Source: a virus
Taxonomy: Duplodnaviria > Heunggongvirae > Uroviricota > Caudoviricetes
Strand: one strand, 5' to 3'
Virus record (IMG/VR): IMGVR_UViG_2531839128_000014
DNA: 6,197 nucleotides
This document shows, in pieces, positions 1,857 through 5,231 of the stretch. A program made the translations under genes and the position numbers. Positions within the stretch are counted from its first letter, which is position 1. Each line of letters starts with the position of its first letter. Under the pieces are notes generated by a model, which worked only from the letters and a program-made list of their open reading frames with translations, did not search any database and was not told the DNA's origin.

Positions 1857-2194
1857 CGCGGGAAATGCAGTTTGTCATGCGGCTTGCCCGGGAGTTCCGG
1901 CGGGCAGACTGGCGGCGGATGCTGTCGGAAATGTCGGCCACTGAGCTTGGTGAGTGGGGCGATTATTTCCGGATGCAGAGCTTCAGTGATGTGTGGATGG
2001 ATGCGCAGTTTGCCTCGCTGAAGGCATTGATCGTGAGAATGGTGTCCGGCAGCAGTGATGCTGCGGTGGCTGATTTCAGCCTTTTACCGGAAGAGAACGG
2101 GATACCGGAGCGAACGGACGAAGAACTGATGCATCTTGGGGAAGGTATTTCCGGAGGTGTGCGTTATGGACCAGATAGCCAACCTGGTCATTGA
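1467..2194 (+). CDS. T: Tail assembly chaperone G-T fusion made by -1 frameshift near 1844-1850 (gpGT-like); the T part is not expected to be translated on its own
   Basis: The T-like ORF (track 1865..2194, ...LAREFRRADWRRML...) is in the -1 frame relative to G. That frame is open from 1823, overlapping the last 34 nt of G. The G / G-T arrangement is conserved in long-tailed phages. The T frame ends with TGA at 2192-2194, overlapping the tape measure start. Confidence 0.75.
1844..1850 (+). other. Candidate -1 programmed ribosomal frameshift slippery site (G GAA AAG) for G-T fusion
   Basis: The -1 frame has a stop at 1820-1822 and the G frame stops at 1854-1856, so any G-to-T shift must occur within 1823-1853. 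The only slippery-looking heptamer there is GGAAAAG (1844-1850), read G GAA AAG in the zero frame and GGA AAA G after a -1 shift. It differs from lambda's G GGA AAG by one base, and the exact site is inferred. Confidence 0.5.
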
Positions 2195-5100
2195 TTTGGG
2201 GATTGATGCGGCAGAGTTTAAAAATGAAATTCCCCGTATCAAAAACCTTCTGAATGGTGCAGCCAGCGATGCAGAACGGTCTTCTGCCCGTATGCAGCGT
2301 TTTATGGAGCGTCAGACTCAGGCCGCCCGGCAGACAACGCAGGCGGCTTCTTCGGCTGCAACAGCCGCATCCGTCCATGCGCAGACGGTGGAGAAGAACG
2401 CACAGGCTCATGAACGCATGGCCCGCGAGGTGGAGAAAACCCGCCAGCGCATGGAGGCACTGAGCCAGAAAATGCGTGAGGAACAGGCGCAGGCCATGGC
2501 TCTGGCGGAGGCTCAGGATAAAGCGGCTGCTGCGTTTTATCGTCAGATTGACAGTGTGAAACAGGCCAGTGCGGGGCTGCAGGAATTACAGCGTATTCAG
2601 CAGCAGATCCGACAGACCAGAAACAGTGGCGGGATTGGTCAGCAGGATTATCTGGCGCTGATTTCTGAGGTTACGGCGAAAACCCGTGTTCTTACACAGG
2701 CTGAGGAAGAGGCTACCCGACAGAAAGTGGCGTTTATCCGTCAGCTTAAAGAGCAGGCAACCCGCCAGAATCTTTCATCTTCTGAGTTGCTTCGTGCCAG
2801 GGCAGCCCAGCTGGGGGTAAGCAGTGCTGCAGAAGTGTATATCCGCAAAATGGAGCAGGCAGGAAAAGCCACGCATTCGCTGGGTCTGAAAAGTGCAGCA
2901 GCCCGCCAGGAGATAGGCGTTCTGATAGGTGAACTGGCCCGTGGCAATTTAGGAGCGCTGAGGGGATCCGGGATAACGCTGGCTAACCGTGCCGGATGGA
3001 TAGACACACTGATGTCACCGAAAGGCATGATGCTGGGCGGGGTTATTGGCGGTATTGCCGCGGCCGTCTATGGTCTGGGTAAAGCCTGGTATGACGGTCA
3101 GAAGGAGGGGGAAGAATTTAACCGCCAGCTGTCACTGACGGGGCATTATGCCGGAGTCACTGCCGGGCAGCTGTGGACGCTCAGTCGTGCTATTTCCGGG
3201 AATGGTATCACGCAACATGCTGCAGCCGGTGCGCTGGCTCAGGTGGTGGGGAGTGGTGCATTTCGTGGAAACGATATCGGTATGGTGGCGAGAGCTGCCG
3301 CACAGATGGAGCGATCGGTTGGCCAGTCGGTCAGCGATACCATAAATCAGTTTAAGCGGCTGAAGGATGATCCTGTAAATGCCGCGAAGGCTCTGGACAA
3401 TGAGCTGCATTTTCTTACTGCCACTCAGCTTGAGCAGATACGCGTCCTTGGGGATCAGGGGCGGTCCAGTGATGCTGCACGGATAGCCATGTCTGCACTG
3501 GCAGAGGAAACCGGTCGGCGTACTGCGGATATTGATAATAACCTCAATGCGCTGGGCAGTACGCTGAAGTATCTGTCTGATTTATGGAGTCGTTTCTGGG
3601 ATGCGGCCATGAATATTGGTCGTGAAGACTCGCTGGATGAACAGATTGCCGCTTTACAGGAGAAAGTGTCGCGGGCGAAAAGACTCCCCTGGACGGCATC
3701 ATCTTCTCAGGTTGAATACGATCAGCAGCGTCTTAACGATCTTCAGGAGAAAAAACGCCAGAAGGATTTGCAGGATGCAAAAGAGCAGGCAGAGCGGAAT
3801 TATCAGGAGCAACAGAAACGCCGTAATGCTGAAAATGCTGCACTGAACCGGATGAATGAAACGGAAGCTGCACGACATCAGCGTGAAATTGCGCGTATTA
3901 ATGCCATGCAGTACGCCGATCAGGCTGTCAGGGATGCGGCGATACAACGTGAAAATGAACGTTACGAGAAAGCCCTGGCATCCGGTAAGAAAAAAACACG
4001 CGAAACCCGTAATGATGAGGCCACCCGGTTATTGCTGCAGTACAGTCAGCAACAGGCACAGGTGGAAGGACAGATTGCTGCTGCCAGACAGTCAGCAGGC
4101 ATTGCCACGGAAAGGATGACAGAAGCGCATAAACAGCTTCTGGCTCTGCAGAAGCGCATCAGCGACCTGGACGGGAAAAAACTGACGGCAGATGAAAAGA
4201 GTGTGCTGGCCCGTAAAGATGAACTGATTCAGGCACTGACGCTGCTGGATGTAAAACAGCAGGAGCTTCAGAAACAGACGGCACTCAACGAGCTGAAGAA
4301 AAAAACAATTCAGCTGACCAGTCAACTGGCTGAAGAAGAGCGCGCTCAGCGTCAGCAACATGACCTGGATATCGCCACGGTGGGTATGGGTGATCAGCAG
4401 CGACAGCGATATCAGGTACAACTGAGTCTTCGCCAGAAATACCAGCAACAGCTGGAGCAGTTGAGGCGGGATAGTGAGCAGAAAGGGACATATAACACGG
4501 ATGACTACAGAAAGGCCGAGCAGGCGCTGACGGAGAGCCTGAACCGACAACTGAATGAGAATCGCCGTTACTGGCAACAGCTTGAAGTTGTGCAGGGTAA
4601 CTGGAAAAACGGAGTCCTGCGTGCATTTCAGGATTTTACCGTGGATGCAGATAATACGGCAGAAACAGCAGAACAGGTGTTCTCGTCAGCCTTCAGCAAC
4701 ATGGGAAATGGCCTGGCAACTTTTGTCACTACCGGCAAACTCAATTTCAAATCCTTCACCTCTTCTGTGCTGTCAGATATGGCGAAAATCCTGGCGCAGG
4801 CAACCATGATGAAATCGATAAAAGGGATTGGCAGTGTACTGGGATTTGATCTCAGCAGCCTTTCCCTGAATGCCAATGGGGGGATTTATCAGTCTGCTGA
4901 TTTGAGTCGTTACAGTGGCACGGTGGTTAACCGTCCGACGTTTTTTGCTTTTGCAAAAGGCGCGGGTGTGATGGGGGAAGCGGGACCTGAAGCCATTCTG
5001 CCACTGCGTCGTGGTGCTGACGGTAAGCTGGGGGTTGTGGCGGATATTGGGGGTTCAGGTATGGCGATGTTTTCCCCGCAGTACAACATCGAGATCAATA

Positions 5101-5231
5101 ACGATGGCACGAACGGGCAGATAGGTCCGGCTGCCCTGAAGGCGGTTTATGACCTCGGGAAAAAAGCGGCAGCGGACTTTATGCAACAGCAGGCCCGTGA
5201 TGGTGGTCGGTTAAGTGGAGCATATCGGTAA
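2166..5231 (+). CDS. H: Tail tape measure protein (lambda gpH family), about 1021 aa
   Basis: Large ORF in the frame of track ORF 2136..5231. I place the start at ATG 2166 because it follows GGAGG (2153-2157) by 8 nt and gives MDQIANLVIDLGIDAAEF, aligning with the lambda gpH N-terminus as I recall it (MAEPVGDLVVDLSLDAARF). The C-terminus (...NNDGTNGQIGPAALKAVYD...RDGG...) matches lambda gpH closely. The protein has an internal Gly-rich hydrophobic segment and a long Q/E/R/K-rich predicted coiled-coil centre. Stop TAA at 5229-5231. Confidence 0.95.
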   Translation: MDQIANLVIDLGIDAAEFKNEIPRIKNLLNGAASDAERSSARMQRFMERQTQAARQTTQAASSAATAASVHAQTVEKNAQAHERMAREVEKTRQRMEALSQKMREEQAQAMALAEAQDKAAAAFYRQIDSVKQASAGLQELQRIQQQIRQTRNSGGIGQQDYLALISEVTAKTRVLTQAEEEATRQKVAFIRQLKEQATRQNLSSSELLRARAAQLGVSSAAEVYIRKMEQAGKATHSLGLKSAAARQEIGVLIGELARGNLGALRGSGITLANRAGWIDTLMSPKGMMLGGVIGGIAAAVYGLGKAWYDGQKEGEEFNRQLSLTGHYAGVTAGQLWTLSRAISGNGITQHAAAGALAQVVGSGAFRGNDIGMVARAAAQMERSVGQSVSDTINQFKRLKDDPVNAAKALDNELHFLTATQLEQIRVLGDQGRSSDAARIAMSALAEETGRRTADIDNNLNALGSTLKYLSDLWSRFWDAAMNIGREDSLDEQIAALQEKVSRAKRLPWTASSSQVEYDQQRLNDLQEKKRQKDLQDAKEQAERNYQEQQKRRNAENAALNRMNETEAARHQREIARINAMQYADQAVRDAAIQRENERYEKALASGKKKTRETRNDEATRLLLQYSQQQAQVEGQIAAARQSAGIATERMTEAHKQLLALQKRISDLDGKKLTADEKSVLARKDELIQALTLLDVKQQELQKQTALNELKKKTIQLTSQLAEEERAQRQQHDLDIATVGMGDQQRQRYQVQLSLRQKYQQQLEQLRRDSEQKGTYNTDDYRKAEQALTESLNRQLNENRRYWQQLEVVQGNWKNGVLRAFQDFTVDADNTAETAEQVFSSAFSNMGNGLATFVTTGKLNFKSFTSSVLSDMAKILAQATMMKSIKGIGSVLGFDLSSLSLNANGGIYQSADLSRYSGTVVNRPTFFAFAKGAGVMGEAGPEAILPLRRGADGKLGVVADIGGSGMAMFSPQYNIEINNDGTNGQIGPAALKAVYDLGKKAAADFMQQQARDGGRLSGAYR

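What the first reader, a model, noticed from the sequence alone, without database searches (positions are those of the whole stretch)
2166..5231. Tape measure protein about 170 aa longer than lambda gpH, predicting a longer tail
This gene encodes about 1021 aa, against 853 aa for lambda gpH. Tail length in siphoviruses scales with tape measure length at roughly 0.15 nm per residue, so this phage would have a tail some tens of nanometres longer than lambda's if the extra residues are helical. The extra length appears to sit in the central Q/E/R/K-rich segment (about nt 3650-4560, runs such as QQRLNDLQEKKRQKDLQDAKEQAERNYQEQQKRRNAENAALNR). The N- and C-terminal regions align with lambda gpH.
Basis: partly seen in the sequence, partly recalled or inferred. 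Interest (0 to 1): 0.45.

Follow-up and report, generated by a model that had tools for sequence, protein, structure and literature searches.

The report
Common long-armed lambdoid tape measure protein
This is the ordinary tail tape measure gene of a very common E. coli prophage type; it is 168 residues longer than lambda's because of a helical block near its N-terminus that most relatives have and lambda lacks, and published micrographs of phages with the same protein do not show the much longer tail that was predicted.

Summary
The gene is real. ATG 2166 to stop 5231 encodes 1021 aa, 168 more than lambda gpH. The start is sound and identical copies occur in many complete E. coli genomes, so it is not an artefact.

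Three independent placements put it in one Pro-free, predicted alpha-helical block, aa 71-250 (nt 2376-2915), between the conserved N-terminal cap and the TMP_2 core. The placements were BLASTP offsets, a five-protein alignment and Pfam landmarks. The central Q/E/R/K-rich segment is only about 15 aa longer than lambda's, and the C-terminal part is 16 aa shorter.

The block is the family norm. It is present in phi80, Gifsy-1, Fels-1, mEp043 and the phrog_24 consensus, and partly in TLS. Lambda sits at the short end of the family.

The ruler rule predicts about 25 nm more tail, roughly six extra tube rings. Published microscopy does not show this. Tritos, whose tape measure is 98.4% identical with no indels, measures 163.5 nm, against 156.8 nm for Perceval (853-aa lambda-type protein) in the same study. 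Ayreon is reported at about 120 nm. These data are thin.

This is a known protein of low interest. The one open point is whether the N-terminal arm counts towards tail length.

The parts
2166..5231 (+). Tail tape measure protein gene (gpH homologue), 1021 aa
   Evidence: ORF. Pfam TMP_2, TMP_4 and Tape_meas_lam_C. TIGR01541 282.6 bits against a cut-off of 104.75. phrog_24 matched end to end. 98.4% identical to the mEp460 and Tritos proteins with no indels.
2152..2156 (+). Shine-Dalgarno GGAGG, nine bases upstream of ATG 2166
   Evidence: Read from the sequence.
2166..2375 (+). Conserved N-terminal cap, aa 1-70 (head-proximal end of the ruler)
   Evidence: aa 2-56 align with lambda gpH 3-57, E 4e-8. 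Conserved in Gifsy-1, phi80 and mEp043.
2376..2915 (+). N-arm block, aa 71-250: 180 residues absent from lambda gpH, and the source of the extra length
   Evidence: Single 180-column gap in lambda. No Pro and 7 Gly. AF2 on aa 1-300 gives helices 15-153, 159-200, 205-216 and 219-237 with pLDDT 77-94. No internal duplication and no domain hit. Shared with Gifsy-1, Fels-1, phi80, mEp043 and partly TLS.
2847..3443 (+). TMP_2 (PF06791) core, aa 228-426, Gly-rich
   Evidence: 168.1 bits against a cut-off of 30.2. Lambda's TMP_2 lies at aa 54-256.
3648..4562 (+).
   Evidence: 305 aa here against 290 aa in lambda, so +15 only. 43% Q/E/R/K against 39% in the aligned lambda segment. Contains TMP_4, aa 616-693.
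4596..4820 (+). Tape_meas_lam_C (PF09718), aa 811-885
   Evidence: 78.3 bits against a cut-off of 23.
5093..5231 (+). 3' end of the tape measure gene, belonging to a mosaic module shared at nucleotide level with lambda-type phages and continuing into gpM and gpL
   Evidence: Nucleotide similarity to lambda, ev207 and Perceval starts at 5093 and runs to 6197.
1467..1856 (+). gpG tail assembly chaperone, 129 aa
   Evidence: PF06894, 120.5 bits.
1844..1850 (+). Putative -1 slippery heptamer G GAA AAG for G-T synthesis
   Evidence: Same register as lambda's G GGA AAG. Conserved in mEp460, Tritos, Gifsy-1, phi80 and mEp043. The -1 frame is open from 1823.
1850..2194 (+). T part of the G-T chaperone (-1 frame); it overlaps the tape measure start by 29 nt
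   Evidence: PF06223, 56.5 bits. Predicted GT is 242 aa.
5231..5560 (+). gpM-like minor tail protein, the downstream neighbour
   Evidence: PF05939, 135.7 bits.
633..1406 (+). gpV-like tail tube protein with a C-terminal Big_2 domain; its polymerisation is what the tape measure limits
   Evidence: PF16461 213.7 bits and PF02368.

Best explanation
nt 2166-5231 encodes the tail tape measure protein of a lambdoid E. coli prophage of the mEp460/cdtI/Ayreon/Tritos type.

Architecture:
- a conserved 70-aa N-terminal cap;
- a 180-aa amphipathic, Pro-free alpha-helical arm, aa 71-250;
- a Gly-rich TMP_2 core;
- a central charged helical segment of about 300 aa;
- the Tape_meas_lam_C region;
- a Gly-rich C-terminus that docks in the tail tip.

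Compared with lambda gpH, the whole +168 aa comes from the N-terminal arm, which lambda lacks. The rest of the protein is collinear with lambda and about the same length.

Inferred mechanism, from established lambda and TP901-1 work:
- Several copies are held extended by gpG and gpGT.
- They are anchored by the C-terminus in the gpM/gpL/gpI/gpJ initiator.
- gpV hexamers polymerise around them until the N-terminal end is reached and gpU caps the tube.

If the arm is fully extended it adds about 25 nm, roughly 6 rings. The published micrographs suggest the real gain may be much smaller, so I put the chance that this phage's tail is at least 15 nm longer than lambda's at about 45%.

Shown here: identity, architecture, placement of the indel, helicity prediction and prevalence. 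Inferred: the ruler role of the arm and the tail length.
For: Identity:
- Pfam TMP_2, TMP_4 and Tape_meas_lam_C, TIGR01541 and phrog_24 end to end.
- Synteny U-V-G-T-H-M-L.
- 98.4% identity and equal length to the mEp460 and Tritos tape measures.

Indel placement:
- BLASTP offsets, the alignment and segment counts and Pfam landmarks.

Helicity:
- AF2 on aa 1-300 gives mean pLDDT 73.5, with 77-94 over aa 20-220 and helices 15-153, 159-200, 205-216 and 219-237.
- The full-length AF2 model is helical to about aa 890 but has pLDDT 47.
- The block has no Pro. Hydrophobic residues recur with the 3.5-3.67-residue spacing of an amphipathic helix, z = 5.4 against shuffled sequence.

Family norm:
- The N-arm ranges from 96 to 689 aa (median 241, SD 89). 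The middle segment has median 380 and SD 23, over 100 representatives.
- The block is present in phi80, Gifsy-1, Gifsy-2, Fels-1 and mEp043. Its second half is present in TLS, E 1e-5.

Prevalence:
- One 90%-identity cluster has 10008 members.
- 1826 of 5426 complete E. coli genomes carry the gene.

Ruler rule:
- Lambda has 32 gpV rings of 42 A (PMC10721106).
- 0.15 nm per residue, from Katsura and TP901-1 (PMC5099701).
Against: - The tail-length part is not borne out by the few measurements available. Tritos is 163.5 +/- 2.4 nm against Perceval's 156.8 +/- 5.3 nm, a gain of +6.7 nm where about +25 nm is expected.
- Ayreon is reported at about 120 nm.
- TLS has a 945-aa tape measure with a 241-aa N-arm and a 155 nm tail.
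- The representatives used for the family statistics are the 150 best hits to this query, so they may be biased towards long N-arms.
- AF2 was run without an alignment.
- No experiment on this exact prophage exists in what I could read.
Confidence: 0.85

Rival explanations
1. The N-terminal arm (aa 71-250) is not counted by the ruler. It may fold back, pack as a short bundle, or sit in the neck or connector. On this reading virions have tails close to lambda's in length despite the longer protein, and the arm serves another role such as contact with the terminator or the DNA end, or channel formation during ejection.
For: - Same-study microscopy gives a 1021-aa-tape-measure phage only 6.7 nm more tail than an 853-aa-tape-measure phage, about 0.04 nm per extra residue.
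- Ayreon is reported at about 120 nm.
- TLS has an N-arm 116 aa longer than lambda's and a 155 nm tail.
- The helix breaks at aa 154-158, 201-204 and 217-218 would allow folding.
Against: - The number of particles measured is not stated, and the Tritos stock was only 1.4e7 PFU/mL.
- The Tritos capsid measured 57.2 +/- 9.6 nm. This hints at under-calibration or deformed particles, and scaling to a 63 nm capsid would give about 180 nm.
- The Ayreon figure is a rough value from a genome announcement.
- The comparison with TLS crosses laboratories.
- In TP901-1, N-terminal deletion and duplication changed tail length proportionally.
- A 139-residue uninterrupted helix is predicted across the start of the block.
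Confidence: 0.35
2. [quoted passage not shown]
For: - The central segment is 43% Q/E/R/K and contains a 24-aa insertion relative to lambda at aa 760-783.
Against: - The net central difference is +14 to +15 aa out of 168.
- The offset is already +167 at aa 289.
- The aligned lambda segment is almost as Q/E/R/K-rich, at 39%.
Confidence: 0.02
3. The size difference is an artefact: a mis-called start, a frameshift fusion or a mis-assembly.
For: - The longest ORF starts 30 nt upstream at TTG 2136.
- A few database relatives are obvious fusions, namely P0001, P0008 and P0057.
Against: - ATG 2166 has a GGAGG nine bases upstream, and residues 2-56 align with lambda residues 3-57.
- The same CDS is annotated in isolated, plaque-forming phages.
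- Copies that are 100% identical occur in many complete genomes.
- 90 of the 120 closest clusters are 1020 or 1021 aa.
Confidence: 0.01

Closest known systems
Tape measure proteins of phages mEp460 (YP_007112087), Tritos (CAH1234759), Ayreon (ATE85480) and cdtI
   Same: 1021 aa, 98.4-98.6% identical with no indels, and the same G-T-H-M-L context.
   Different: Only point substitutions in the tape measure. The upstream tube protein V is of the mEp460 type, not the Tritos type (74% identity to Tritos V).
Lambda gpH (NP_040595, 853 aa; PDB 8iyk chain H)
   Same: The N-terminal cap, TMP_2, the central helical segment, Tape_meas_lam_C and the C-terminal INNDGTNGQIGPAALKAVYD motif. Collinear from aa 289 to the end. 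Same gene order.
   Different: Lambda lacks the 180-aa block at aa 71-250. Identity is only 25% over the aligned part. Lambda carries a different motif (RMLPAQFTDVATQLAGGQSPW...) just before the core.
phi80 tape measure (1045 aa), Gifsy-1 STM2594 (1031 aa), Fels-1, Gifsy-2, mEp043 and mEp213 (1086 aa)
   Same: All have the N-arm block: 66% to 38% identity over aa 1-290 and an N-arm of 294-343 aa.
   Different: Different central indels. mEp043 also has the lambda-type motif and a further insertion of about 50 aa.
TLS / T1-type (Drexlerviridae) tape measure, 945 aa
   Same: TMP core and Tape_meas_lam_C landmarks. The second half of the block is recognisable (E 1e-5), for example ELLEMKAAQLGVS.
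   Different: No match to the N-terminal 56-aa cap. The N-arm is 241 aa. The phage is virulent and has a different tube protein.

Membership tests
Lambda-type tail tape measure protein (TMP_2 + Tape_meas_lam_C; TIGR01541; phrog_24) | TMP_2 (PF06791) domain above the gathering score | tested here: met
   168.1 bits against 30.2, aa 228-426.
Lambda-type tail tape measure protein (TMP_2 + Tape_meas_lam_C; TIGR01541; phrog_24) | Lambda C-terminal tape measure region (PF09718 / TIGR01541) above the cut-off | tested here: met
   PF09718 78.3 bits against 23. TIGR01541 282.6 bits against 104.75, covering the full 332-position profile.
Lambda-type tail tape measure protein (TMP_2 + Tape_meas_lam_C; TIGR01541; phrog_24) | Gene lies directly after the G / G-T frameshifted chaperone pair and before gpM-gpL | tested here: met
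   PF06894, PF06223 and PF05939 neighbours. Slippery heptamer G GAA AAG in the lambda register, with the -1 frame open.
Lambda-type tail tape measure protein (TMP_2 + Tape_meas_lam_C; TIGR01541; phrog_24) | Long, predominantly alpha-helical protein | tested here: met
   The full-length AF2 model is helical to about aa 890, at low confidence (pLDDT 47). The model of aa 1-300 has pLDDT 73.5 and is helical. Both are single-sequence predictions only.
Lambda-type tail tape measure protein (TMP_2 + Tape_meas_lam_C; TIGR01541; phrog_24) | Protein length determines tail tube length (about 0.15 nm per residue) | not testable with these tools
   Literature only. Tritos is 163.5 nm against Perceval's 156.8 nm, and Ayreon is about 120 nm. 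These values do not match the roughly +25 nm expected.
Lambda-type tail tape measure protein (TMP_2 + Tape_meas_lam_C; TIGR01541; phrog_24) | C-terminal proteolytic processing (gpH to gpH*) and docking of the C-terminal fragment with gpI in the tip | not tested
   The C-terminal 69 aa are 54% identical to lambda, and the 3' end of the gene is co-inherited with gpM and gpL. Cleavage itself was not examined.
mEp460/cdtI/Tritos tape measure cluster | At least 90% identity over the full length, with the same length | tested here: met
   98.4% identity, 1021 aa and no indels. The cluster of 10008 members is at 99% identity.

The most novel reading that the evidence does not exclude
In lambda-family tape measures the variable N-terminal arm does not act as a fully extended ruler. 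About 170 extra helical residues add only one or two tube rings. On this reading the 0.15 nm per residue rule fails for this part of the protein, and the arm has another job, for example occupying the neck or terminator region, or forming part of the trans-envelope conduit.
Probability: 0.3. Interest if true: 0.45.

Novelty: already known. Interest (0 to 1): 0.12.

Why it matters
The finding matters little as it stands. The protein is annotated in isolated phages and is present in about a third of complete E. coli genomes.

The comparison with lambda mainly shows that lambda is the short outlier of its own family. Length variation in the family is concentrated in the arm N-terminal to the TMP_2 core.

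The one useful lead is a natural test of the ruler rule. Near-isogenic tail modules exist with 853-aa and 1021-aa tape measures, and natural in-frame deletions occur within the arm. The sparse published measurements disagree with the rule's prediction.

Tried and rejected
- Internal duplication as the origin of the block: self-BLASTP gave no off-diagonal hits and Tandem Repeats Finder found nothing.
- The block as a displaced copy of a lambda segment: the best hit to lambda gpH has E 0.02.
- A known domain in the block: Pfam and NCBIfam gave nothing below E 0.04. PHROGs returned only tape measure fragment families.
- Full-length AF2: mean pLDDT 47, used only for secondary structure. I did not run fold search because the tertiary model is meaningless.
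- Literature on tail lengths of phi80, cdtI, mEp460 and HannyBb: the relevant papers are not held or do not give the value.
- Xu et al. 2014, on where gpG and gpGT bind gpH, is not held. Whether the chaperone-binding region is extended could therefore not be addressed, beyond showing that the chaperone itself is shorter than lambda's.
- Mis-called start and assembly artefact were considered and rejected (see the rival explanations).
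Full report
**Observation**

The + strand carries an ORF from ATG 2166 to the stop at 5229-5231, encoding 1021 aa. The mechanically longest ORF begins at TTG 2136.

Several lines support ATG 2166 as the true start:
- It is preceded by GGAGG at 2152-2156.
- Its product aligns from residue 2 with residue 3 of lambda gpH.
- The same 3066-nt CDS is annotated in the isolated phages mEp460, Tritos and Ayreon.

Lambda gpH is 853 aa, so the stated excess of about 170 aa is right; the exact figure is 168. The quoted Q/E/R/K-rich run is at aa 520-562, nt 3723-3851.

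The gene is not an artefact:
- Copies that are 100% identical occur in many complete E. coli chromosomes.
- 1826 of 5426 complete genomes carry at least 80% of it.
- One 90%-identity protein cluster holds 10008 members.
- 90 of the 120 nearest clusters are 1020 or 1021 aa.

**Identity and context**

- Pfam finds TMP_2 (aa 228-426), TMP_4 (616-693) and Tape_meas_lam_C (811-885).
- TIGR01541 scores 282.6 bits against a cut-off of 104.75.
- phrog_24 (tail length tape measure protein) matches end to end.
- The neighbours are gpU, gpV with a Big_2 domain, gpG, the T frame, then gpM and the start of gpL.
- The window is 92-96% identical in DNA to mEp460, cdtI, Ayreon, Tritos and the PhiR47_1-type phages.
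- The protein is 98.4% identical to the mEp460 and Tritos tape measures and 98.6% to Ayreon's, with no indels.

**Where the extra residues are**

1. BLASTP against lambda gpH aligns aa 2-56 with lambda 3-57 (E 4e-8) and aa 289-1021 with lambda 122-853 (E 1e-50, 25% identity). The +167 offset is therefore already complete at residue 289.
2. In an alignment with Gifsy-1, phi80, mEp043 and lambda, lambda shows one continuous 180-column gap opposite window aa 71-250.
3. Pfam landmarks give the same partition.

| Segment | Window (aa) | Lambda (aa) | Difference |
|---|---|---|---|
| aa 800-1020, C-terminal part (alignment) | 221 | 237 | -16 |
| N-terminus to TMP_2 start (Pfam) | 227 | 53 | +174 |
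| TMP_2 end to Tape_meas_lam_C start (Pfam) | 384 | 370 | +14 |
| Tape_meas_lam_C end to C-terminus (Pfam) | 136 | 152 | -16 |

The extra length is thus a single N-terminal block, nt 2376-2915.

**Nature of the block**

- It has no proline and 7 glycines in 180 residues, and is 51% A/Q/E/R.
- Its hydrophobic residues recur with the 3.5-3.67-residue spacing of an amphipathic helix (z = 5.4 against shuffled sequence).
- AlphaFold2 on aa 1-300 gives mean pLDDT 73.5, with 77-94 across aa 20-220. The predicted helices are 15-153, 159-200, 205-216 and 219-237.
- The full-length model is helical to about aa 890, but at pLDDT 47.
- It is not an internal duplication: self-BLASTP gave no off-diagonal hits and no tandem repeats were found.
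- It has no significant match in lambda gpH and no Pfam or NCBIfam domain.

**The block is the family norm**

- The first 290 aa match Gifsy-1 (66%), Fels-1 (62%), Gifsy-2 (55%), phi80 (50%) and mEp043/mEp213 (38%). Their tape measures are 1031, 1045 and 1086 aa for Gifsy-1, phi80 and mEp043.
- The phrog_24 consensus includes the block.
- Its second half is recognisable in the Drexlerviridae phage TLS (E 1e-5).
- A search of representatives clustered at 50% identity gave 100 full-length relatives carrying both landmarks. Their median length is 988 aa, with an interquartile range of 922-1041.
- In those relatives the arm before the TMP_2 core ranges from 96 to 689 aa (median 241, SD 89). The middle segment is nearly constant (median 380, SD 23).
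- Lambda (N-arm 125 aa, total 853 aa) is near the short extreme. The window (N-arm 294 aa, total 1021 aa) is typical.
- One caveat applies: these are the 150 best hits to this query, so long arms may be over-represented.
- Lambda-type H genes are also common, in 3694 of 5426 genomes. Both forms are widespread.

**Tail length**

Lambda's tube is 32 gpV rings of 42 A, which is 134.4 nm or 0.158 nm per gpH residue (PMC10721106). The 0.15 nm per residue rule is supported by Katsura's lambda work and by TP901-1 deletions (PMC5099701). An extra 168 residues predict +25 to +26.5 nm, about 6 rings.

Published measurements for phages with this protein do not show that:

| Phage | Tape measure | Reported tail length | Source |
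|---|---|---|---|
| Tritos | 1021 aa | 163.5 +/- 2.4 nm | PMC9928086, |
| Perceval | 853 aa, 98.8% identical to lambda gpH | 156.8 +/- 5.3 nm | PMC9928086, |
| Ayreon | 1021 aa | about 120 nm | PMC5764929, |
| TLS | 945 aa, N-arm 241 aa | 155 nm | |

- Tritos and Perceval were measured in the same study. Both have J proteins of equal size.
- The gain is +6.7 nm, which is 1.6 rings or 0.04 nm per extra residue.

The data are weak:
- The number of particles measured is not stated.
- The Tritos stock was 1.4e7 PFU/mL.
- The Tritos capsid measured 57.2 +/- 9.6 nm, which hints at calibration or deformation problems.
- The Ayreon value is approximate.
- The TLS comparison crosses laboratories.

I therefore leave the tail-length prediction open. 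I put about 45% on a tail at least 15 nm longer than lambda's, and I treat the reading that the arm is not a ruler as the main rival.

**Chaperone**

The G-T frameshift site appears to be G GAA AAG at 1844-1850. It sits in the same register as lambda's G GGA AAG and is conserved in mEp460, Tritos, Gifsy-1, phi80 and mEp043. The -1 frame is open from 1823. The predicted GT product is 242 aa against 279 aa in lambda, so the chaperone is not extended in step with the tape measure. Where gpG and gpGT bind on gpH could not be checked, because Xu et al. 2014 is not held.

**Verdict**

This is a known, very common protein. The location given for the extra residues is wrong. The significance is overstated, because lambda is the short outlier. 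The predicted phenotype is reasonable but is not supported by the few data available. The only point of some interest is that this family offers a clean natural test of whether the N-terminal arm of a tape measure counts towards tail length.

Noticed in passing
window 1844-1850 (context 1823-1856): The G-T frameshift heptamer is G GAA AAG where lambda has G GGA AAG. It is in the same register relative to the G start and is conserved in mEp460, Tritos, Gifsy-1, phi80 and mEp043. The predicted GT fusion is 242 aa against 279 aa in lambda.
   Followed up: partly
window 5093-6197: There is a mosaic junction inside the 3' end of the tape measure gene. Nucleotide similarity to lambda, ev207 and Perceval begins abruptly at 5093 (about aa 976) and continues through gpM into gpL. 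The last roughly 46 codons of the tape measure therefore travel with the tail-tip genes they contact.
   Followed up: partly
window about 1401: A second mosaic boundary. Tritos, PhiR47_1 and HannyBb-type phages match the window only from 1401 onwards (94-96%), whereas mEp460, cdtI and Ayreon-type phages match across it. The window's tube protein V is only 74% identical to Tritos V.
   Followed up: no
window 1426-1455: A terminator-like hairpin (8-bp stem with 6 G-C pairs, followed by a T run) lies between gpV and gpG. Rho-independent terminators are annotated at this position in mEp460 and Ayreon.
   Followed up: no
window 2418-2903 (aa 85-246 of the tape measure): Natural in-frame deletion variants of this protein in public genomes cluster in the N-terminal block: deletions of aa 85-110, 196-229, 200-246 and 216-238, giving proteins of 995, 987, 974 and 998 aa. 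Two other variants lie elsewhere, with deletions of aa 378-418 and 615-682. All are rare compared with the 1020/1021-aa forms.
   Followed up: partly
L006 (mEp043) tape measure, aa about 250-340: The mEp043 tape measure carries the N-arm block, the lambda-type RMLPAQFTD...GGQ motif that the window type lacks, and a further insertion of about 50 aa. This suggests the lambda form arose by loss of the block and not the window form by gain.
   Followed up: no
proteins P0001, P0008, P0057: A few database relatives are longer (1150, 1087 and 1045 aa) through terminal extensions. P0008 carries a ClpP (PF00574) domain and P0057 a gpG (PF06894) domain. These are probably gene-call fusions or chimeric contigs.
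   Followed up: no
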